Positions 1,492 to 48,036 of a stretch of DNA of 64,000 nt are shown one piece after another. This DNA is from Shigella phage KNP5, in sequence record KX452698, one strand, 5' to 3'. Each line of letters starts with the position of its first letter. Position 1 is the stretch's first letter. Position numbers and translations under genes: made by a program. The notes beneath the pieces were generated by a model that saw only the letters and a program-made list of their open reading frames with translations, had not been told where the DNA came from and did no database searches.

Positions 1492-1965
1492 TTATTTGAA
1501 TGATTTGACGTACTGAATAGAGCCTTTGCTATTCACGAAAGCGATTTTACCATTTTTGTTATACATGGTAGCAGTACGCTGATAACCATAAGTTTGTTTA
1601 CCAGATTGATAACCAACTAATGCAAAATTATCTTCACCCATTTTATTCTGCTTCGCGCGGATACGTTCATGACCATGTGCCATAAGAACCTTAGCGTCGC
1701 CAGTTGCAATGGATCTACGAGTTTTTTCATCTTCAACTGTATTAACAAAGTCGTCAAATGAATCAAATTTAGCGTGAGATTTATTATACAGTTTTCCATC
1801 TACTGCATAATTATATCCCTGTACATCCATCTCAACTTCTGTACCATCATCCAATACAGCAGTGATTTTTTGACCTTTTTTAAATTTCAAAAGATCAGTA
1901 AAAGATTCAGCGATAATTTGAGAATTAATAGCTGCTTCAGTGATAAATTCTTGATATGTTTTCAT
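1492..1965 (-). CDS. head internal protein (IP-like) with N-terminal capsid targeting sequence
   Basis: 157 aa; begins MKTYQEFITE, matching the T4 IP capsid-targeting sequence with I-x-E protease sites (ITE, IAE); late promoter just upstream. Confidence 0.7.
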   Translation of the reverse strand: MKTYQEFITEAAINSQIIAESFTDLLKFKKGQKITAVLDDGTEVEMDVQGYNYAVDGKLYNKSHAKFDSFDDFVNTVEDEKTRRSIATGDAKVLMAHGHERIRAKQNKMGEDNFALVGYQSGKQTYGYQRTATMYNKNGKIAFVNSKGSIQYVKSFK

Positions 1966-6487: not shown

Positions 6488-6805
6488 TTATTTCATATTA
6501 TTGAAATATTCTTCTGCGATTTCGTCGTTATCGTGGTAAACTTTAGAAGACAGTTTAACATAACCTTCTGCTGTGAACATATTAATCACAACCTTTACAG
6601 TATACCACTGTCCGTCTTCATTACCCATTACTGCGTAAGTTTCAAACATCGGATGGTCAGGACCGATAACTTTAATATCATTCACTGTACGACCGAAATC
6701 TTCTGAAACGCATTTCATAAAGAAGTTGAACAGTTCGCCGTAATTATCCATTTCATTCTCCAAGTTGTTTTTCTGTATCAGTAGTTGATAGTTGTATAGT
6801 ACCAT
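6488..6805 (-). CDS. hypothetical protein (e.8-like position)
   Basis: 105 aa ORF. Confidence 0.6.
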   Translation of the reverse strand: MVLYNYQLLIQKNNLENEMDNYGELFNFFMKCVSEDFGRTVNDIKVIGPDHPMFETYAVMGNEDGQWYTVKVVINMFTAEGYVKLSSKVYHDNDEIAEEYFNNMK

Positions 6806-6824
6806 GGAAGAGCAGGGATGTAAA
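6796..6824 (-). promoter_or_regulatory. early promoter TTTACA-17nt-TACTAT
   Basis: minus tttcacaaaactaTTTACAtccctgctcttccatggTACTAT, upstream of the ORF at 6805. Confidence 0.45.
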
Positions 6825-6955
6825 TAGTTTTGTGAAAAAATTTTTAAAAATTTTTAGGGAATTCTAGGGCAGGGAGGGGCAATTAAAAGATAGGATAATA
6901 TATTATAAAGGGTAGAAACTAAATGATGTCTAGAGAGGTCCAGAAAGGCCTAGAT

Positions 6956-6986
6956 ACCAAAAAGCCCCAACCTTTTGGTCGGGGTT
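6956..6986 (-). terminator. rho-independent terminator (minus strand)
   Basis: minus AACCCCGACC aaaa GGTTGGGGC followed by TTTTT; downstream of the IP-like gene. Confidence 0.7.
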
Positions 6987-6993
6987 AAGAATG

Positions 6994-7467
6994 TTATTTG
7001 ATTTGTTTAGCAGACCAAATGCGGTCTTTAATAATTTTTTGAATGTCTTCAACATACTCAAGAGAGTGAACATGTGGATTATCTTTGAAACTATAAGCAC
7101 GGGCTAACTTTTGGCCTTCGGTTTTGATTACTAAAAGCTCTTTAAGGATAGCTTCATATTTAGAGATAATTCCTTTAACAATATTTTTTTCTTGTGCAAC
7201 TTTAGGATCTGCTTTAGGAGCAGGTTTACCCGAAGCCTTTGCAAAAGCAGCGCCAGTAGCAACTAGACTTTTCCAGGCCATACTAACCGCATTTCCCGTA
7301 AATCCTTCTGCTTTCATGTCGCGAGCAAATTGGAATCGTGATTCGTCAGAAGCATCTTTATAGGAATATTTACCCGCTGCAATGGCTGCTTTTGCGACAG
7401 CTTGAATTTCGGTGCTAGATGCTTCATTTAACACCGCTTCATTTAAAAATTGAGCATATGATTTCAT
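6994..7467 (-). CDS. head internal protein (IP-like) with capsid targeting sequence
   Basis: 157 aa; begins MKSYAQFLNE↓AVLNE↓ with L-x-E sites; own late promoter and flanking terminators. Confidence 0.65.
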   Translation of the reverse strand: MKSYAQFLNEAVLNEASSTEIQAVAKAAIAAGKYSYKDASDESRFQFARDMKAEGFTGNAVSMAWKSLVATGAAFAKASGKPAPKADPKVAQEKNIVKGIISKYEAILKELLVIKTEGQKLARAYSFKDNPHVHSLEYVEDIQKIIKDRIWSAKQIK

Positions 7468-7507
7468 CTTATTTCCTGTTTTAATTCGTGGATTTAATAT
7501 ACTACTA

Positions 7508-7515
7508 TATTTATA
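7508..7515 (-). promoter_or_regulatory. late promoter core TATAAATA
   Basis: plus tatttata; about 40 nt upstream of the ATG at 7467. Confidence 0.6.
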
Positions 7516-7516
7516 C

Positions 7517-7547
7517 TAAAAAGCCCCAACCTTTCGGTCGGGGCTAA
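7517..7547 (-). terminator. rho-independent terminator ending the tRNA / stable-RNA transcription unit
   Basis: minus GCCCCGACC gaaa GGTTGGGGC followed by TTTTT. Confidence 0.7.
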
Positions 7548-7850
7548 GCCTTGCGGCAACCTTGTCGGGGTTCCACCTGCTAAGGCAAGTGTTTGTACGA
7601 AACGCCGGGATTCGAACCCGGTTATTAAGCAGTTGACGCTACTCAATATTTTTAAAAGGCCATATCTCGACCATATCCGAACGTTCCGTCAAAAACGCTA
7701 CTCGGCTTACGGCAAAGATATTTCCTCGAATCGATAATTCGGTGCGCCGTTTCAGCTGTGATAGTAAAGAACCAGAACACAGTAAAACTGTGGGAGGAAC
7801 TATACTCCAGGGAACATCAGTCCGACGACTTACCGGTAGCGACCCGGTTT
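7548..7850 (-). ncRNA. candidate stable small RNA region (T4 species 1/2 RNA-like position)
   Basis: about 300 nt non-coding between the ORF at 7852 and the terminator; contains a tRNA T-arm-like element CCGGGTTCGAATCCCGG; T4 carries two stable RNAs in the same cluster. Confidence 0.35.
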
Positions 7851-7851
7851 C

Positions 7852-8202
7852 TTAATATTCTTTTAAAGTATCAATCTGTTCACGACGTTTACGCCATAAA
7901 TCAATTGCTTCATACGCAGATTCAGCATTTCGAATTAGTCGGCATTTGTGTAAAGACTTATGATTTTGATATTGTGTAGATAACGGAATTTTATCTAAAA
8001 GGTCTTTACGTTCAAAGTATTCGTAACCATCTAAGCCAAATGAACGATTTTTAAGAAATTGCCAATGACCATATTCGTTTTCGACATAAACATAATCCGC
8101 ATGTTGATAAAGCAAATTAATTACACGTTCAGAAATAACAGTGTCATTGTGATTAAAATAAAATGTTAAATCATGAACTACTAAATAAACATTACCTTTC
8201 AT
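7852..8202 (-). CDS. hypothetical protein embedded in the tRNA cluster
   Basis: 116 aa ORF between tRNA-Arg and the stable-RNA region; no GIY-YIG or HNH motif seen. Confidence 0.5.
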   Translation of the reverse strand: MKGNVYLVVHDLTFYFNHNDTVISERVINLLYQHADYVYVENEYGHWQFLKNRSFGLDGYEYFERKDLLDKIPLSTQYQNHKSLHKCRLIRNAESAYEAIDLWRKRREQIDTLKEY

Positions 8203-8218
8203 ATTTTCCTCACTTAAT

Positions 8219-8294
8219 TGGTCGAGACAGTAGGGATCGAACCTACGACCTAGGACTTAGAAGGTCCTTGCTCTTCCTTCTGAGCTATGCCTCG
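8219..8294 (-). tRNA. tRNA-Arg (anticodon UCU), CCA encoded
   Basis: hand-folded cloverleaf: acceptor CGAGGCA/TGTCTCG, anticodon loop CUUCUAA, T-loop TTCGATC. Confidence 0.85.
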
Positions 8295-8298
8295 TATT

Positions 8299-8373
8299 TG
8301 GCGGACATGCATGGATTCGAACCATGGACCAATTGATTAACAGTCAACTGCTCTACCACTGAGCTACACATCC
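8299..8373 (-). tRNA. tRNA-Asn (anticodon GUU), CCA encoded
   Basis: hand-folded: D-arm GCTCAGTGGTAGAGC, anticodon loop CUGUUAA, T-arm CATGG-TTCGAAT-CCATG. Confidence 0.8.
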
Positions 8374-8377
8374 AAAT

Positions 8378-8464
8378 TGGTGGGGAGTGATGGAGTCGAA
8401 CCACCCGAGTCGCAATGACAATGGATTTACAGTCCACACCGCTACCTCTACGGGATAACTCCCC
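8378..8464 (-). tRNA. tRNA-Tyr (anticodon GUA), class II long variable arm, CCA encoded
   Basis: perfect 7-bp acceptor GGGGAGT/ACTCCCC, anticodon loop CUGUAAA, long variable arm; D-arm slightly irregular. Confidence 0.65.
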
Positions 8465-8476
8465 TAATTCTTAATT

Positions 8477-8551
8477 TGGTGGCCCTGGGTGGAATTGAAC
8501 CACCATCTGGCGATTATGAGTCGCTTGCTTGAACCTTCCAGCTACAGGGCC
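8477..8551 (-). tRNA. tRNA-Ile (anticodon CAU, lysidine type; Met not excluded), CCA encoded
   Basis: anticodon stem-loop GCGA-CUCAUAA-UCGC resembles bacterial tRNA-Ile2; acceptor GGCCCTG/CAGGGCC. Confidence 0.8.
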
Positions 8552-8552
8552 T

Positions 8553-8628
8553 TGGTGCTGATTGACGGAATCGAACCGCCGACCTTCTCATTACAAGTGA
8601 GTTGCTCTACCTACTGAGCTAAATCAGC
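8553..8628 (-). tRNA. tRNA-Thr (anticodon UGU), CCA encoded
   Basis: acceptor GCTGATT/AATCAGC, anticodon loop CUUGUAA. Confidence 0.85.
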
Positions 8629-8633
8629 AAAAC

Positions 8634-8723
8634 TGGCGGAGGCGATAGGATTTGAACCTATGAGTCGCCGGAGCGACTGCCGGTTTTCAAGACCGGTGCA
8701 TTAAACCACTCTGCCACGCCTCC
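8634..8723 (-). tRNA. tRNA-Ser (anticodon UGA), class II, CCA encoded
   Basis: acceptor GGAGGCG/CGCCTCC, anticodon stem-loop CCGGT-CUUGAAA-ACCGG, long variable arm. Confidence 0.85.
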
Positions 8724-8725
8724 AG

Positions 8726-8799
8726 TCTCCATACAAGGATTTGAACCTTGGACCTCCTGATCCCAAATCAGGCGCTCTACCAAACTGAGCTACACGGAG
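8726..8799 (-). tRNA. tRNA-Pro (anticodon UGG), CCA not encoded
   Basis: anticodon stem-loop CCTGA-UUUGGGA-TCAGG, T-arm CAAGG-TTCAAAT-CCTTG. Confidence 0.8.
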
Positions 8800-8809
8800 T
8801 AAATTAAAT

Positions 8810-8883
<74 letters not shown>

Positions 8884-8888
8884 AAATT

Positions 8889-8975
8889 TGGTGCGAGAAG
8901 TGGGACTCGAACCCACAAGGAAATCATTCCGCAGCATTTTAAGTGCTGTGCCTTTACCAATTTGACCATTCTCGC
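8889..8975 (-). tRNA. tRNA-Leu (anticodon UAA), class II, CCA encoded
   Basis: acceptor GCGAGAA/TTCTCGC, anticodon stem-loop CAGCA-CUUAAAA-TGCTG, long variable arm. Confidence 0.85.
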
Positions 8976-8976
8976 G

Positions 8977-9049
8977 CTGGGAATAAAGGACTCGAACCTT
9001 TGCATCCTGGAATCAAAATCCAGTGCCTTACCAACTTGGCTAATTCCCA
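8977..9049 (-). tRNA. tRNA-Gln (anticodon UUG), CCA not encoded
   Basis: acceptor TGGGAAT/ATTCCCA, anticodon stem-loop CTGGA-UUUUGAU-TCCAG. Confidence 0.8.
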
Positions 9050-9135
9050 ATTATTAACAAAGGCTCTTAAGCAAGAACCCTTGATGATAGAGGGTATTAA
9101 TCAGTGCGATATGAGTTAATAATAACAAATAATTC

Positions 9136-9715
9136 TTAAAGCAAATTAAACATTTTAACGGTCGGCAAAACAATTTCTTCTTCTATATAAGAGTATTTAA
9201 CACTCTCAACTACACGCAAAAAATCATAATCATAATACTCAGAAGCATTACCTAAAATATTAATAAGTCCTTCAAGCACTTTATTACCATTCACAAAGAA
9301 TAAGTCAAATACACGTTCTTCATCTTCTTCAGATTTATTACCAAGATCAACTTCTATGCGAAAGACCTTTTTAATGAATTCTGGATAAAGCTGGTCTGAG
9401 AACAGTCCTTCAACCNNNNNNNNNNNNNNNNNNNNNNNNNNNNNNNNNNNNNNNNNNNNNNNNNNNNNNNNNNNNNNNNNNNNNNNNNNNNNNNNNNNNN
9501 NNNNNNNNNNNNNNACCACAATAGCGCTCAATTTTAGTACTAGAATATCTGCTTTTAAACTTCTTCAAAAGATACTGAAATTGTAAGATTTCATGCTCTT
9601 CTACGCCAAACAATGTTTTGGTTTTATTGTTGTCGCCATCATTTTCCCAGGTAGTGACATCAATTACGTAGCCCTGCGGAATTGTAGTACCTAAACAAAT
9701 ATTCATTTTCACCAC
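9136..9715 (-). CDS. hypothetical protein interrupted by a 99-nt unresolved (N) block
   Basis: ORFs 9410..9715 and 9136..9531 flank the N run in different frames; probably one gene of about 190 aa. Confidence 0.4.
9416..9514. other. unresolved sequence (99 N)
   Basis: run of n characters. Confidence 1.
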
Positions 9716-10005
9716 GCTGCATTAATGTAAGTATATTTAATACATTCAAGACCCAAAGGATTCTTGAAAATATCATATTCAAGAGGACCTTTTTCTGTTT
9801 CAATAAAGAAATCAAAATTTACTGTATTAAATGTACGGTCTTCCTTTACTAATTTAACTTGAGAAGATGAACGGCCAATGTAAACCTTTTCAACTTCAAA
9901 ATATGTTAAAACGCCATAATCATCAATCAAGGCTTTAGCTGCTTCTTGATCATATTTATATCCATTTTCAATGGATGATACTTTCGCATAAAGAATCACT
10001 ATCAA
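9709..10005 (-). CDS. hypothetical protein
   Basis: 98 aa ORF in the hypervariable block between the tRNA cluster and the ipI locus. Confidence 0.5.
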   Translation of the reverse strand: MIVILYAKVSSIENGYKYDQEAAKALIDDYGVLTYFEVEKVYIGRSSSQVKLVKEDRTFNTVNFDFFIETEKGPLEYDIFKNPLGLECIKYTYINAAW

Positions 10006-10412
10006 CCTCTATCAACAATAACATGAGTATGAGCATTTACAATTTGCCACCAATCGAAACGATTGGAACCATAATCTGGTTTATTTTCATTTTCTTTAAT
10101 GATATCACGCAGTTTATCTTCTGTTTCAGCATACGCAATTAAATCATCATATCCACCACAAGGATAATAATTATCACCTGCGAATAAAAGAAAATTTACC
10201 TTAGATGGATTTACGTAATAATGGTCTTTAGGATATTTAGTTCCTCTCCAATCAGTTACTTCAACATAACGATAAGAAAATCCATTTTTACTTTCAATCC
10301 AACTCCACGCTTCAAAAGGAGTATTAAAAACTTTATCAGGTATTAAATTACCTTCAAAATGAGAAGGATTTGCATAATCCCCAGCATAAACATAGTATTC
10401 GTTAATACTCAT
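10002..10412 (-). CDS. hypothetical protein
   Basis: 136 aa ORF; ATGA overlap with neighbours; no recognisable motif. Confidence 0.55.
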   Translation of the reverse strand: MSINEYYVYAGDYANPSHFEGNLIPDKVFNTPFEAWSWIESKNGFSYRYVEVTDWRGTKYPKDHYYVNPSKVNFLLFAGDNYYPCGGYDDLIAYAETEDKLRDIIKENENKPDYGSNRFDWWQIVNAHTHVIVDRG

Positions 10413-10598
10413 CTATTCACCTTTAGAAATTTTATCCATAACGATAGCAATTAAACCAATTAAAAATGCTACTACAAGTGAAAAAACATTTTCTGCTGTA
10501 GTCAATAATCCGCAAATAAATCCAACAAACATTGAAAAACTAAAAGCGGAAGCAGAAATTGCAATAGCAACATTTCGAATTAATTCACAACGTTTCAT
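10413..10598 (-). CDS. small hydrophobic membrane protein
   Basis: 61 aa, one or two TM segments; preceded by an early promoter-hairpin repeat. Confidence 0.45.
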   Translation of the reverse strand: MKRCELIRNVAIAISASAFSFSMFVGFICGLLTTAENVFSLVVAFLIGLIAIVMDKISKGE

Positions 10599-10618
10599 TT
10601 TATTCTCCTCGGTAGTTG

Positions 10619-10680
10619 ATAGGGTAATAGTATCACAACTAAAACCCTATGTAAACAACTTTGTGAAATTATTTTAAATC
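10619..10680 (-). repeat. promoter-hairpin repeat copy A (PeSL-like early promoter plus stem-loop)
   Basis: 32-nt identical core atgtaaacaactttgtgaaattattttaaatc shared with 10979-11010, plus 7-bp hairpin atagggt/accctat. Confidence 0.7.
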
Positions 10681-10926
10681 TTCTAATCGTTTCTTCATCT
10701 TAGAACCATTTTTAGCAATTTCTCCTGCATCGGAGCATAATGCTAAAAGTGCTTTAACTTTAGTTTGGTCTCCTTTAAAAGATGAAGGATCGACTGCAGC
10801 AGCAAGTTCTTTAATACGAGAGAAAAGACGCTCAGCTTCAGCTAAAGCCATTCCAAGCTTTACTTCCATACCGTGAGAAGATTCAGTGATAGTGGTTTTT
10901 GTAGCAAACTCTTTGAAAGTTTTCAT
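10669..10926 (-). CDS. small IP-like protein at the ipI locus (putative capsid-targeted)
   Basis: 85 aa; begins MKTFKEFATKTTITE↓ (CTS-like with I-x-E site); sits immediately downstream of 57B, where T4 carries ipI. Confidence 0.55.
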   Translation of the reverse strand: MKTFKEFATKTTITESSHGMEVKLGMALAEAERLFSRIKELAAAVDPSSFKGDQTKVKALLALCSDAGEIAKNGSKMKKRLEDLK

Positions 10927-10946
10927 TTTATTTTCCTAATTAATTT

Positions 10947-11695
<749 letters not shown>

Positions 11696-11696
<1 letters not shown>

Positions 11697-12421
11697 TATA
11701 GTACCTTTAGTGTATTTTTAATTTTAGAAAAAAGTTCTTCAAGAGAACCATCGTTTGTAATTACTAAATCGCCATCACGAATTGGCAATCCAGCTTCTGT
11801 AATATGAGTATCATTGGATTTTTGACCAGGACGAACTACATGAATTACTGTAGCACCCATCGCCCTAGCCGCATCCATTTCATGATCTTGACGAGTATCA
11901 GGAACGATATAATAATCATAGCCTGAGTTAAATTTATCAAGATAATCTAAAGCAAATAATTTTACCCAATACATGCGGTCGAAGTTATTAACAATCAAAT
12001 CCGTACCTAGGGCTTGCATCAGACGACGGACTGACCATTGATCTTCAATATTATTTATAACGTCAGCAATCTTATTAAATGCTACGAAAGTAACTGATTC
12101 TTTTCCTTCGTCATCAAAAACAAACACGCCTTTAATTGGGCTTTTACTATTAAGATAGCAAAATGCTTGTTCCATAATCGTAATTACTTCTAATTTAGTC
12201 AAATTCAAATTAGTCTCACGATCATAGTCAATTCCTTCAAACTCTTTACGAGTTAAGCAAGGATAGTCAGTGTTTGCTGCAAATACGCCCCATGCATAAG
12301 CCAATGCATCTTTAATAGGACCAGCAAGTTGATATTTAGCTGCAGAATAATTATTCATGATAAAATCTGCAGTAGTATCTTTTCCACTACGCTTTACACC
12401 ACTTAAAAAGATTAGTTTCAT
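11696..12421 (-). CDS. 1: deoxynucleoside monophosphate kinase
   Basis: 241 aa; P-loop GVKRSGKDT; matches T4 gp1. Confidence 0.92.
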
Positions 12422-45964: not shown

Positions 45965-48036
45965 TTATGGATAGGTATAGATGATACCAGTTTCTAAAGC
46001 AGTTTTATGAATGATGTATCCATTACGTGATTCTTGAACATCAACTTCTGGATAGTCTTTCATCATCTTCTGAAGGGTGTAACGGTGCAGGTAGTATTTA
46101 CTATCTGGATCTTCAGTTTTCCAATCTTTACCTTCTTCGGTCATTTTTTGGATTTCATCCATAACCCACCAACCGCACCAGATATAAGCTGAAGTACGAT
46201 GTGGAAGAGGATGAACATAAGGCAATTCACCTTCTGGTTCCGGAGCAACTTTATCAGTCACCTGAACTTGGCCTGTTGCTTTAACTGTTTTACTGTCATA
46301 GTCAGTTGCTGTAACGACAGCAGTAACTTCAATAGTTTGACTTCCAATAGATGAGGTATCGACAGTATATACGTTAGTTGACCCTTCCACAGGAGAAGAA
46401 TCTTTCTTCCATGAATAAGTAATTTGTGCTGCTTCAGGTGCTCCAGTAACATTAGCTGTAAATGTAGCCGAAGCATCTTGCTGAACGTTAATAGAAGGAG
46501 GAGTCAATGCAACCTGTGGATTCATTGTCTTCTTATTAACCGTCAGTGACACTTCGTTGGAAGTAACTTCCTTTTCATTGTAATTTTCTGCAGTTACTTG
46601 CGCTACACATTTAATTCTTTTTACTCCACTTGTAGTTGGAGTATAGTTAAATGTAGAGTTAGTTTCTCCACCAATTTGAGAATCATCTACATACCATTTA
46701 TATGTAGCAGTTGCGCCGTCGGGTTGAGAAGCTAAGGCAGCAGTAAATTGAACAGCTGTTCCAATTACTCCAGCTGGAGGACTAGCAGGAGTTACAGCTA
46801 AGGTAGTTGTCTGCNNNNNNNNNNNNNNNNNNNNNNNNNNNNNNNNNNNNNNNNNNNNNNNNNNNNNNNNNNNNNNNNNNNNNNNNNNNNNNNNNNNNNN
46901 NNNNNNNNNNNNNNNNNNNNNNNNNNNNNNNNNNNNNNNNNNNNNNNNNNNNNNNNNNNNNNNNNNNNNNNNNNNNNNNNNNNNNNNNNNNNNNNNNNNN
47001 NNNNNNNNNNNNNNNNNNNNNNNNNNNNNNNNNNNNNNNNNNNNNNNNNNNNNNNNNNNNNNNNNNNNNNNNNNNNNNNNNNNNNNNNNNNNNNNNNNNN
47101 NNNNNNNNNNNNNNNNNNNNNNNNNNNNNNNNNNNNNNNNNNNNNNNNNNNNNNNNNNNNNNNNNNNNNNNNNNNNNNNNNNNNNNNNNNNNNNNNNNNN
47201 NNNNNNNNNNNNNNNNNNNNNNNNNNNNNNNNNNNNNNNNNNNNNNNNNNNNNNNNNNNNNNNNNNNNNNNNNNNNNNNNNNNNNNNNNNNNNNNNNNNN
47301 NNNNNNNNNNNNNNNNNNNNNNNNNNNNNNNNNNNNNNNNNNNNNNNNNNNNNNNNNNNNNNNNNNNNNNNNNNNNNNNNNNNNNNNNNNNNNNNNNNNN
47401 NNNNNNNNNNNNNNNNNNNNNNNNNNNNNNNNNNNNNNNNNNNNNNNNNNNNNNNNNNNNNNNNNNNNNNNNNNNNNNNNNNNNNNNNNNNNNNNNNNNN
47501 NNNNNNNNNNNNNNNNNNNNNNNNNNNNNNNNNNNNNNNNNNNNNNNNNNNNNNNNNNNNNNNNNNNNNNNNNNNNNNNNNNNNNNNNNNNNNNNNNNNN
47601 NNNNNNNNNNNNNNNNNNNNNNNNNNNNNNNNNNNNNNNNNNNNNNNNNNNNNNNNNNNNNNNNNNNNNNNNNNNNNNNNNNNNNNNNNNNNNNNNNNNN
47701 NNNNNNNNNNNNNNNNNNNNNNNNNNNNNNNNNNNNNNNNNNNNNNNNNNNNNNNNNNNNNNNNNNNNNNNNNNNNNNNNNNNNNNNNNNNNNNNNNNNN
47801 NNNNCAGCTTCTGGAACTGTATTTGTTGCAACCACCTTAATAGTCTTTTGACCGGCAGGTCCTTTTAATACATAATCAAAAGTTGCTTCAGCTCCATCCT
47901 GTGGAACATTATCTACACTCCAAGCATAGGTAATAGTTCCACCTTCGGTTTGACCACTTGGTGCAGCAGTAAACTGCTTGGTTTCATCAATAACTCCAGT
48001 AGGTGTTTTAGGAGTTATATCAACTGTAAAAGCCAT
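45965..48036 (-). CDS. hoc: highly immunogenic outer capsid protein Hoc, interrupted by a 990-nt unresolved block
   Basis: N-terminal 77 aa (MAFTVDITPKTPTGVIDETKQF) before the gap and 282 aa after it (QTTTLAVTPASP ... IIYTYP) match T4 Hoc; flanks are in different frames. Confidence 0.85.
46815..47804. other. unresolved sequence (990 N) inside hoc
   Basis: run of n characters; ORFs called through it are artefacts. Confidence 1.

What the first reader, a model, noticed from the sequence alone, without database searches (positions are those of the whole stretch)
9136..10926. Hypervariable block of unassigned small ORFs between the tRNA cluster and 57B
Five minus-strand ORFs have no recognisable motifs: one of about 190 aa interrupted by Ns, then 98 aa, 136 aa, a 61-aa membrane protein, and an 85-aa CTS-like protein. 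They occupy the position where T-even phages are known to swap internal-protein and accessory genes, and are bracketed by early promoter-hairpin repeats. Hyperplastic regions in T4-type phages are where host-range and anti-defence genes concentrate. The 136-aa ORF is aromatic-rich (YVYAGDYANPSHFEG ... YYPCGGYDD).
Basis: inference. Interest (0 to 1): 0.5.

Follow-up and report, generated by a model that had tools for sequence, protein, structure and literature searches.

The report
Known T-even internal-protein / tRNA accessory locus
This stretch is the already described gene-swapping spot of T4-like phages between the tRNA genes and 57B: it holds the named injected head protein Ip5, three genes that T4 itself has (trna.2, trna.3, trna.4) and one widespread 171-aa gene, so it is real but ordinary, and four of the five functions are still unknown.

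Summary
The five minus-strand ORFs exist and are real genes, but they are not unassigned or, mostly, hypervariable. The window is about 99.9% identical to Escherichia phage KNP1, a Tequatrovirus.

- **85-aa ORF:** it is 100% identical to the published Ip5 of RB15, RB32 and T6.
- **98-, 136- and 61-aa ORFs:** these are T4 trna.2, trna.3 and trna.4, at 86%, 99% and 100% identity.
- **"~190-aa" ORF:** it is a 171-aa gene (RB32ORF135c family, phrog_2290). The 99-N run stands in for about 44 nt, so the reading frames join.

Real plasticity is limited to three things. The ip slot between trna.4 and 57B holds one to three ip cassettes in eight phages compared. The 171-aa gene is present or absent (absent in T4 and T6). 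trna.3 is present or absent (absent in T2). Every junction in the ip slot is a promoter-early stem-loop (PeSL). In this window the PeSLs bracket only ip5, not the whole block.

Ip5 is most likely a capsid-targeted, injected anti-restriction protein, but its target is unknown. The other four have no family, fold or literature assignment, apart from T4 Trna.2 co-purifying with the defence protein DRT1. Verdict: already known, low interest.

The parts
9136..9706 (-). 171-aa gene (RB32ORF135c family, phrog_2290), interrupted by the N run. It is acidic (pI 4.6) and carries the invariant motif GY....TTWENDGDNYKT.
   Evidence: Alignment to RB32 shows one continuous 516-nt ORF. phrog_2290 E 6.6e-68. 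Found in 572 phage records. T2 has it; T4 and T6 lack it. AF2 model pLDDT 85.5, pTM 0.81. dN/dS 0.14-0.19.
9416..9514 (.). Run of 99 N. It is an assembly-gap placeholder whose length is not the true length.
   Evidence: the same run is in KX452694. RB32 has about 44 nt at this place.
9709..10005 (-). trna.2 orthologue. It is 98 aa from TTG at 10005; more likely 96 aa from GTG at 9999, which aligns with the T4 ATG and follows a GAGG.
   Evidence: 86% identical to T4 Trna.2 and 89% to RB32. phrog_2023 E 1.2e-46. 799 phage records. Start context read.
10002..10412 (-). trna.3 orthologue, 136 aa, acidic and aromatic-rich. The N-terminal half is variable. The conserved C-terminal ~65 aa (NFLLFAGDNYYPxGGxxDL...WWQIVNAxT) also occurs as a stand-alone small protein.
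   Evidence: 99% identical to T4 Trna.3. phrog_1411. Alignment A1. Profile search finds 535 clusters, mostly 60-100-aa proteins matching profile positions 63-126. Absent from T2.
10413..10598 (-). trna.4 orthologue, a 61-aa protein with two predicted membrane-spanning segments.
   Evidence: 100% identical to T4 Trna.4. phrog_1692. 778 records, 504 of them at >=95% identity. Hydropathy.
10599..10668 (-). PeSL between ip5 and trna.4. It has -35 TTTACA (10655-10650), a TG-extended -10 TACTAT (10632-10627), a hairpin ATAGGGT/ACCCTAT (10619-10650) and an SD GAGGAG.
   Evidence: (-17.4 kcal/mol, z -2.3).
10669..10926 (-). ip5, internal head protein Ip5, 85 aa. Residues 1-15 (MKTFKEFATKTTITE; 10882-10926) are the capsid targeting sequence with a predicted prohead-protease site after E15. 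The mature part is 70 aa with pI 9.2.
10927..10998 (-). PeSL between 57B and ip5. It has -35 TTTACA (10985-10980), a TG-extended -10 TACTAT (10962-10957) and a 13-bp hairpin TGATGAGGTAGTG/TATTATCTCATCA (10947-10976).
   Evidence: (-14.8 kcal/mol, z -2.65).
10999..11454 (-). 57B = Acb1 (anti-CBASS phosphodiesterase). It is context and the conserved anchor of the locus.
   Evidence: Pfam PF23474 Acb1 3e-60. 99% identical to T4 57B. 1470 phage records.

Best explanation
The region is the tRNA-57B accessory locus of a T2/RB32-like Tequatrovirus. It has two parts.

**1. The ip5 cassette.** ip5 is a single-gene cassette flanked on both sides by PeSL elements: an early sigma-70-type promoter whose -10 region lies inside a hairpin. 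Its product carries the capsid targeting sequence shared with T4 IPI. By inference it is packed into the prohead, trimmed by the prohead protease after ...ITE (leaving 70 aa) and injected with the DNA. By analogy with T4 Ip1, Ip2 and Ip3, it most likely blocks one particular DNA-modification-dependent (type IV, GmrSD-family) nuclease of some hosts. That target has not been found. The PeSL repeats provide the homology by which ip cassettes are gained, lost and exchanged; here ip5 sits where T4 has ipI.

**2. The trna.4-trna.3-trna.2-ORF171 gene string.** The genes are tightly packed (separated by 0-2 nt or overlapping by 4 nt) and start at the PeSL promoter downstream of ip5. The string encodes a two-pass membrane peptide and three small acidic, aromatic-rich soluble proteins. 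These are conserved, non-structural accessory genes of unknown function. The most likely role is binding and neutralising host proteins early in infection. Variation in this part is by clean whole-gene deletion or insertion, not by rapid sequence change.

**Shown:** gene identities, repeats, promoter and hairpin motifs, cassette architecture, and purifying selection on the genes tested.
**Inferred:** packaging, cleavage and injection of Ip5, its anti-restriction role, operon transcription, and any host-directed role of the other four.
For: - **Identity.** The window is 99.9% identical to KNP1. RB32, T4, T2 and T6 annotations supply the gene names. Ip5 is 100% identical to the deposited RB15 ip5.
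- **Capsid targeting sequence.** MKTFKEF...ITE is shared with T4 IPI and nothing else is. The mature part is basic, like IPI*.
- **PeSL.** Repeats are, TTTACA-17-TACTAT with TG, and hairpins. All 22 junctions of the ip slot in 8 phages are versions of one element, including chimeras (T2 ip5>ip7, RB32 ip9>ip7, teqhad 57B>ip77). In the hairpin register tested, 84% of cells pair and 2 pairs show compensatory changes. This matches the published PeSL description (PMC2839356; PMC4122927).
- **Ip function by analogy.** T4 Ip1, Ip2 and Ip3 each inhibit one GmrSD subtype (PMC12373910).
- **Conservation.** trna.2 occurs in 799 records, trna.4 in 778, ORF171 in 572 and Ip5 in 495. dN/dS is below 0.55 for the four genes tested.
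- **Gene-precise indels.** T4 and T6 keep only ATG-CTT-TAA where ORF171 lies. T2 lacks trna.3, with the junction in the repeated A(A/G)AGGT ribosome-binding sequences.
- **Hint of host interaction.** T4 Trna.2 was one of two T4 proteins enriched with DRT1 (PMC13275509).
Against: - T2 and T6 carry Ip5 yet are restricted by GmrSD of ECOR21 and ECOR17.
- ip4-10 were tested against the further GmrSD systems that restricted T-even phages, and no reproducible inhibition was found (PMC12373910). Ip5 is therefore not an inhibitor of any system tried so far.
- No late-promoter motif lies directly upstream of ip5. The nearest TATAAATA on that strand is at 12052-12059. By contrast, the two other CTS-bearing ORFs of the window each have one 35-41 nt upstream.
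- ORF171 cannot be read through the N run in this phage.
Confidence: 0.75

Rival explanations
1. One reading: a hypervariable island of novel, unassigned ORFs, bracketed by promoter-hairpin repeats, that as a block carries host-range or anti-defence functions.
For: The locus does differ between T-even phages. It adjoins Acb1. The three soluble proteins are small, acidic and aromatic-rich, as many phage inhibitors are. T4 Trna.2 co-purified with DRT1.
Confidence: 0.15
2. Ip5 is mainly a basic head-filling or DNA-condensing protein with no specific host target. The variety of ip genes would then reflect relaxed constraint rather than an arms race.
For: The mature part is basic (pI 9.2). No inhibition was seen when ip4-10 were tested against GmrSD systems. 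T2 and T6, which carry Ip5, are restricted by two GmrSD systems.
Against: All three T4 internal proteins that were examined have specific GmrSD targets. Ip5 is >=95% identical in 248 records, which is not what relaxed constraint would give.
Confidence: 0.2
3. The trna.4-ORF171 genes serve the tRNA cluster that follows them, for example in tRNA maturation or modification, or merely as the leader of the tRNA precursor transcript.
For: They lie directly upstream of tRNA-Gln on the same strand. No intrinsic-terminator-like site was reported between 9136 and 9049. The hairpin at about 9058-9083 is not followed by a T run.
Against: There is no similarity to any RNA-processing or RNA-modification family. 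The trna.x names reflect map position only. ORF171 and trna.3 can be deleted cleanly in T4, T6 and T2, which keep functional tRNA clusters.
Confidence: 0.08
4. ORF171 is a DNA-mimic inhibitor of a DNA glycosylase, in the manner of phage phi29 p56. Its target might be a Brig-type defence glycosylase that attacks T-even DNA.
Confidence: 0.05

Closest known systems
[not shown]
   Same: Gene order and gene sequences match: DNA is 95-97% identical to RB32 and Ip5 is 100% identical. The repeats at the cassette borders are the same ones that the RB32 annotation notes as a '43 bp direct repeat'.
   Different: This phage lacks the Ip7+Ip9 cassette pair of RB32. Its ip5>trna.4 junction differs by only 2 of 70 nt from RB32's ip5>ip9 junction, as expected for recombination between the repeats.
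Phage T4 locus trna.2-trna.3-trna.4-ipI-57B (NC_000866)
   Same: trna.2, trna.3, trna.4 and 57B are orthologous at 86%, 99%, 100% and 99% identity, in the same order and on the same strand.
   Different: T4 has ipI where this phage has ip5; the two proteins share only the first ~26 residues. T4 also lacks the 171-aa gene, keeping only ATG-CTT-TAA at its place.
PeSL (promoter-early stem-loop) mobile regulatory cassettes of T4-type phages (Arbiol et al. 2010, PMC2839356; Comeau et al. 2014, PMC4122927)
   Same: They are intergenic, contain a strong sigma-70-like promoter with an AT-rich upstream part and a hairpin overlapping the -10 box, end in an SD and start codon, flank small non-essential ORFs, and show chimeric copies at indel borders.
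   Different: The stem sequences are specific to this locus (ATAGGGT/ACCCTAT or GATGAGG/CCTCATC), not the G-tract/C-tract stems reported for RB49 and phi1. Promoter and terminator activity was not measured here.
T4 IPI*, Ip2, Ip3: injected inhibitors of GmrSD-family type IV restriction enzymes (Bair 2007; Rifat 2008; Silas et al. 2025, PMC12373910)
   Same: Ip5 has the same N-terminal targeting and cleavage signal, the same genomic slot, and a similar size and charge.
   Different: The mature sequence is unrelated to IPI*. No GmrSD target is known. Natural carriers T2 and T6 are restricted by two tested GmrSD systems, and ip4-10 gave no reproducible inhibition.

Membership tests
T-even internal head proteins (Ip) | N-terminal capsid targeting sequence of about 10 residues (MKT[FY]xEF...) | tested here: met
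   Ip5 starts MKTFKEFATK, with the first 7 residues identical to T4 IPI. The same signal is present in Ip7, Ip9 and the 77-aa Ip of related phages.
T-even internal head proteins (Ip) | Prohead-protease (gp21) site (L/I)-x-E shortly after the targeting sequence. The consensus is taken from established T4 knowledge. | tested here: met
   ITE at residues 13-15 aligns with ITE at 17-19 of IPI. Cleavage at that site in IPI would leave 76 aa. Cleavage itself was not shown.
T-even internal head proteins (Ip) | Identity with a protein already named as an Ip | tested here: met
   [not shown]
T-even internal head proteins (Ip) | Physically present in the capsid and injected with the DNA | not testable with these tools
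   Needs virion proteomics or injection assays.
GmrSD (type IV restriction) inhibitors of the IPI*/Ip2/Ip3 kind | Sequence similarity of the mature protein to a known inhibitor | tested here: not met
   There is no similarity to IPI beyond residue 26. No PDB sequence match at E<=10 other than noise. Ip2 and Ip3 were not compared.
GmrSD (type IV restriction) inhibitors of the IPI*/Ip2/Ip3 kind | Relieves restriction by a GmrSD-family enzyme | not testable with these tools
   Literature only. ip4-10 gave no reproducible inhibition of the systems tried. T2 and T6 carry Ip5 and are restricted by GmrSD of ECOR21 and ECOR17.
PeSL regulatory cassettes | Sigma-70-like early promoter (-35, -10) in an intergenic repeat with an AT-rich upstream part | tested here: met
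   TTTACA-17 nt-TACTAT with TG at 10655-10627 and 10985-10957, both preceded by ATTTAAAATAATTT.
PeSL regulatory cassettes | Stable stem-loop between or over the promoter boxes | tested here: met
   Hairpins of -17.4 and -14.8 kcal/mol (z -2.3 and -2.65) enclose the -10 box. Across 14 junctions, 84% of cells pair and 2 pairs have changes on both sides. The support is modest because the sequences are related.
PeSL regulatory cassettes | Flank small non-essential ORFs, and indel borders fall inside the repeats | tested here: met
   All 22 junctions of the ip slot in 8 phages are this element. Chimeric copies occur at T2 ip5>ip7, RB32 ip9>ip7 and teqhad 57B>ip77.
PeSL regulatory cassettes | Measured promoter and terminator activity | not testable with these tools
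   Needs reporter fusions or transcript mapping.
T4 Trna.2 / Trna.3 / Trna.4 orthologue groups | Full-length sequence identity and conserved position between tRNA-Gln and the ip slot | tested here: met
   86%, 99% and 100% identity to the T4 proteins. Same order in T4, T6, RB32, R5505, OMNI12 and teqhad. PHROGs 2023, 1411 and 1692.
p56-type uracil-DNA-glycosylase inhibitors (considered for ORF171) | Fold similarity to p56 and an acidic DNA-mimic surface | tested here: inconclusive
   [not shown]

The most novel reading that the evidence does not exclude
At least one of the three small acidic, aromatic-rich early proteins (ORF171, Trna.2, Trna.3) is an uncharacterised binder or inhibitor of a host defence protein. 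Two examples: Trna.2 acting on the reverse-transcriptase defence DRT1, with which the T4 protein co-purified; or ORF171 acting as a p56-like DNA mimic. In addition, the stand-alone ~65-aa domain of Trna.3, found in 535 protein clusters, could be a widespread inhibitor module.
Probability: 0.25. Interest if true: 0.55.

Novelty: already known. Interest (0 to 1): 0.18.

Why it matters
The locus itself is textbook T-even biology, so confirming it adds little. Its use is as a pointer.
- Ip5 is a widespread injected protein (267 phage records at >=80% identity) whose target is still unknown after direct tests.
- Trna.2, Trna.3, Trna.4 and the 171-aa protein are conserved across hundreds of therapeutic-type coliphages without any assigned function.
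- Anyone screening for anti-defence genes has here a short, well-delimited candidate list and a natural set of presence/absence variants: T2 lacks trna.3; T4 and T6 lack ORF171.

Tried and rejected
- **Family libraries.** Pfam, NCBIfam and PADLOC scans of all five proteins gave nothing above noise.
- **PDB sequence searches.** Single proteins and profiles A1 and A2 gave nothing.
- **Internal duplication in Trna.3.** I suspected that its two beta-alpha-beta halves were a duplication. hhalign of the halves gave probability 0.2%, so I rejected this.
- **Other RNA genes.** Rfam found only the ten tRNAs in 6500-11500.
- **Literature.** Searches for trna.3, trna.4 and Ip5 found no functional study. 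Repoila 1994 and Bair 2007 are not held in the library, so what I say about them rests on citations in other papers, the GenBank deposit and my own knowledge.
- **Naming trap.** The 'T2L trna.1/trna.2' ORFs of PMC2330249 lie inside the tRNA cluster and are not T4 trna.2.
- **Newer Pfam entries.** The precomputed accessions PF26894 (Trna.3) and PF27001 (Trna.2) are not in the local Pfam copy, so their names could not be read.
Full report
**What the window is.** The 1,961-nt stretch 9050-11010 matches 820 phage records. The best match is Escherichia phage KNP1 (KX452694.1, an UNVERIFIED Tequatrovirus record) at 99.9% identity, followed by RB33 and RB32 at 96%. The KNP1 record has the same run of 99 N at the same place. 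It differs from the window elsewhere: it has 5 N where the window has 32 nt at 10077-10108. The window is therefore that phage or a near-identical copy.

**The observation.** The ORF listing gives the five minus-strand ORFs as described, and ten tRNA genes end at 9049.

The first ORF is split by the N run into two pieces in different frames. Alignment to RB32 shows one continuous 516-nt gene (171 aa) in which the 99 N correspond to about 44 nt, and this removes the frame difference. The N run is therefore a gap placeholder and the ORF is 171 aa, not about 190 aa.

dN/dS between phages is 0.14-0.19 for this gene, 0.26-0.54 for trna.2, 0.23 for trna.3 and 0 for trna.4. These four are coding genes under purifying selection. 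ip5 was not computed because its copies are nearly identical.

The 136-aa protein really is aromatic-rich: 19.1% F+W+Y against 9.8% +/- 2.9% for 50 long ORFs of the window. The 61-aa protein has two hydrophobic spans.

**Names.** The RB32 annotation and the T4 annotation name the genes. From the tRNA side they are RB32ORF135c (171 aa), trna.2, trna.3, trna.4, then the ip slot, then 57B.
- Identity to T4 is 86% for trna.2, 99% for trna.3, 100% for trna.4 and 99% for 57B.
- All five ORFs hit PHROG families: 2290, 2023, 1411 and 1692 (function unknown) and 3499 ('internal head protein').
- None hits Pfam, NCBIfam or PADLOC.
- 57B is Acb1 (PF23474, 3e-60).

**How variable the locus is.** tblastn counts in the phage collection are:

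| Gene | Records | Detail |
|---|---|---|
| 57B | 1470 | 501 at >=95% identity |
| trna.4 | 778 | 504 at >=95% |
| trna.2 | 799 | – |
| ORF171 | 572 | 252 at >=80%; the rest at 27-44% in Klebsiella, Aeromonas, Enterobacter and other T4-like phages |
| Ip5 | 495 | 267 at >=80%; 228 at about 48% are a paralogue beside the lysozyme gene |

The trna.2-4 genes are thus close to core genes of the genus.

Eight loci were compared in detail:

| Phage | Gene order from tRNA-Gln to 57B |
|---|---|
| Window | ORF171, trna.2, trna.3, trna.4, ip5, 57B |
| RB32 | As the window, plus Ip7 and Ip9 before Ip5 |
| T4 | No ORF171; ipI instead of ip5 |
| T2 | ORF171, trna.2, trna.4, Ip7, Ip5 (no trna.3) |
| T6 | No ORF171; a 77-aa Ip plus Ip5 |
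| R5505 | 77-aa Ip plus ipI |
| OMNI12 | 77-aa Ip plus Ip5 |
| teqhad | 77-aa Ip only |

Plasticity is therefore real but confined to three things: the ip slot, presence or absence of ORF171, and presence or absence of trna.3.

The two gene-sized indels are clean. T4 and T6 keep only ATG-CTT-TAA where ORF171 lies. In T2 the junction that removes trna.3 falls in the repeated A(A/G)AGGT ribosome-binding sequences that precede trna.3 and trna.2.

trna.3 also has two alleles that differ in the N-terminal half (62% identity between the window and OMNI12), while the C-terminal half is conserved.

**The repeats.** The repeat finder gives a 69-nt family at 10616-10684 and 10946-11014 (83% alike), with a weak third copy at 6785-6853. 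On the minus strand each has TTTACA, 17 nt, then TACTAT with an upstream TG.

The two copies flanking ip5 fold into hairpins that enclose the -10 box: -17.4 and -14.8 kcal/mol, with z -2.3 and -2.65. The third copy does not fold this way. The stems differ in sequence (ATAGGGT/ACCCTAT versus TGATGAGG/CCTCATCA).

I extracted all 22 junctions of the ip slot from the eight phages. Every one is a version of this element. The 3' part goes with the downstream gene and the 5' part with the upstream gene. There are clear chimeras: T2 ip5>ip7, RB32 ip9>ip7 and teqhad 57B>ip77.

The window's ip5>trna.4 junction differs from RB32's ip5>ip9 junction at only 2 of 70 positions. This is what recombination between the repeats flanking Ip9+Ip7 would leave.

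On an alignment of 14 junctions, 84% of cells pair in the hairpin register tested and two pairs change on both sides. That is modest support, because the sequences are related.

These properties match the published PeSL elements: an early promoter plus stem-loop, flanking small ORFs in hyperplastic regions, with crossovers inside the element (PMC2839356; PMC4122927). In this window they bracket ip5 only, not the five-gene block.

**Ip5.** BLASTP of Ip5 against T4 IPI aligns only residues 1-26: MKTFKEF, then ...TITE. From established T4 knowledge, this is the capsid targeting sequence followed by a prohead-protease (L/I)xE site. Cleavage after E19 of IPI leaves 76 residues, and I recall IPI* being described as 76 residues. 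The equivalent cut in Ip5 after E15 would leave 70 residues with pI 9.2, against 9.0 for IPI*.

T4 Ip1, Ip2 and Ip3 each inhibit one subtype of GmrSD type IV restriction enzyme, with no cross-protection (PMC12373910). The best guess for Ip5 is therefore the same kind of job on another target. The evidence against any tested target is:
- T2 and T6 carry Ip5 and are restricted by GmrSD of ECOR21 and ECOR17.
- The same authors tested ip4-10 against further GmrSD systems without reproducible inhibition.

ip5 has no late-promoter motif of its own; the nearest TATAAATA on that strand is at 12052-12059.

**The other four proteins.**
- **Trna.2.** The only functional hint is that T4 Trna.2 and Inh were the two T4 proteins enriched with wild-type DRT1; this was not followed up (PMC13275509).
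- **Trna.4.** It is a 61-aa two-span membrane peptide, 100% conserved with T4.

**Verdict.** The finding points at a real and correctly located feature, but that feature is already described. Four of the five ORFs have published names, and the fifth belongs to a large family. The repeats are PeSLs. The claim of a hypervariable, unassigned block is overstated. What remains open is function: the target of Ip5, and any role of ORF171, Trna.2, Trna.3 and Trna.4.

Noticed in passing
window 6994-7467 (-), with 7508-7515, 6954-6989 and 7513-7548: A 157-aa ORF (RB32ORF133c homologue, phrog_2280) starts MKSYAQFLNEAVLNEA, which looks like a capsid targeting sequence with two LxE sites. It is basic (pI 9.5). 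A late-promoter motif TATAAATA lies about 41 nt upstream. It is flanked by 36-nt direct repeats (92% alike) that are terminator-like hairpins. All 25 sampled rows of its 510 phage records call it 'hypothetical'. It may be an unnamed internal head protein cassette. T4 has no such gene at this position.
   Followed up: partly
window 1492-1965 (-), with 2000-2007: A third ORF with a capsid targeting sequence (157 aa, MKTYQEFITEAA...) has TATAAATA about 35 nt upstream. It is presumably an ipII/ipIII-type gene. I did not examine it further.
   Followed up: no
window 46815-47804: A second and much longer run of N (990 bases) is present in the window.
   Followed up: no
window 8219-9049 and 7852-8202: The tRNA cluster is of the T2 type (Arg, Asn, Tyr, Met, Thr, Ser, Pro, Gly, Leu, Gln; ten genes) and has no segB homing endonuclease gene. 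The 116-aa ORF downstream of it matches the T2 ORF at the same place. T4 has segB and eight tRNAs here.
   Followed up: partly
window 9136-9155 / 9706-9734 and 10002-10012 / 10410-10420; L003, L004, L005: Whole genes are lost or gained with near codon precision. T4 and T6 keep ATG-CTT-TAA in place of ORF171. T2 lacks trna.3 through a junction in the repeated A(A/G)AGGT Shine-Dalgarno motifs.
   Followed up: yes
window 10002-10215 (C-terminal half of trna.3): The conserved ~65-aa C-terminal domain of Trna.3 exists as a stand-alone small protein in 535 clusters of a 1.84-billion-protein library. It is sometimes fused to other parts, for example an HTH domain. No function or solved structure is known.
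   Followed up: partly
window 10077-10108 vs KX452694.1: The GenBank KNP1 record has 5 N where the window has 32 defined bases. The window is therefore not a verbatim copy of that record, although it shares the 99-N gap.
   Followed up: partly
window 7470-7850: This stretch between the 157-aa ORF and the tRNA cluster has no long ORF. It contains a tRNA-like segment (7579-7618 resembles the 3' part of tRNA-Arg/Asn; repeat D6). It may correspond to the T4 stable RNAs rnaC and rnaD. Rfam reported nothing there at gathering threshold.
   Followed up: no
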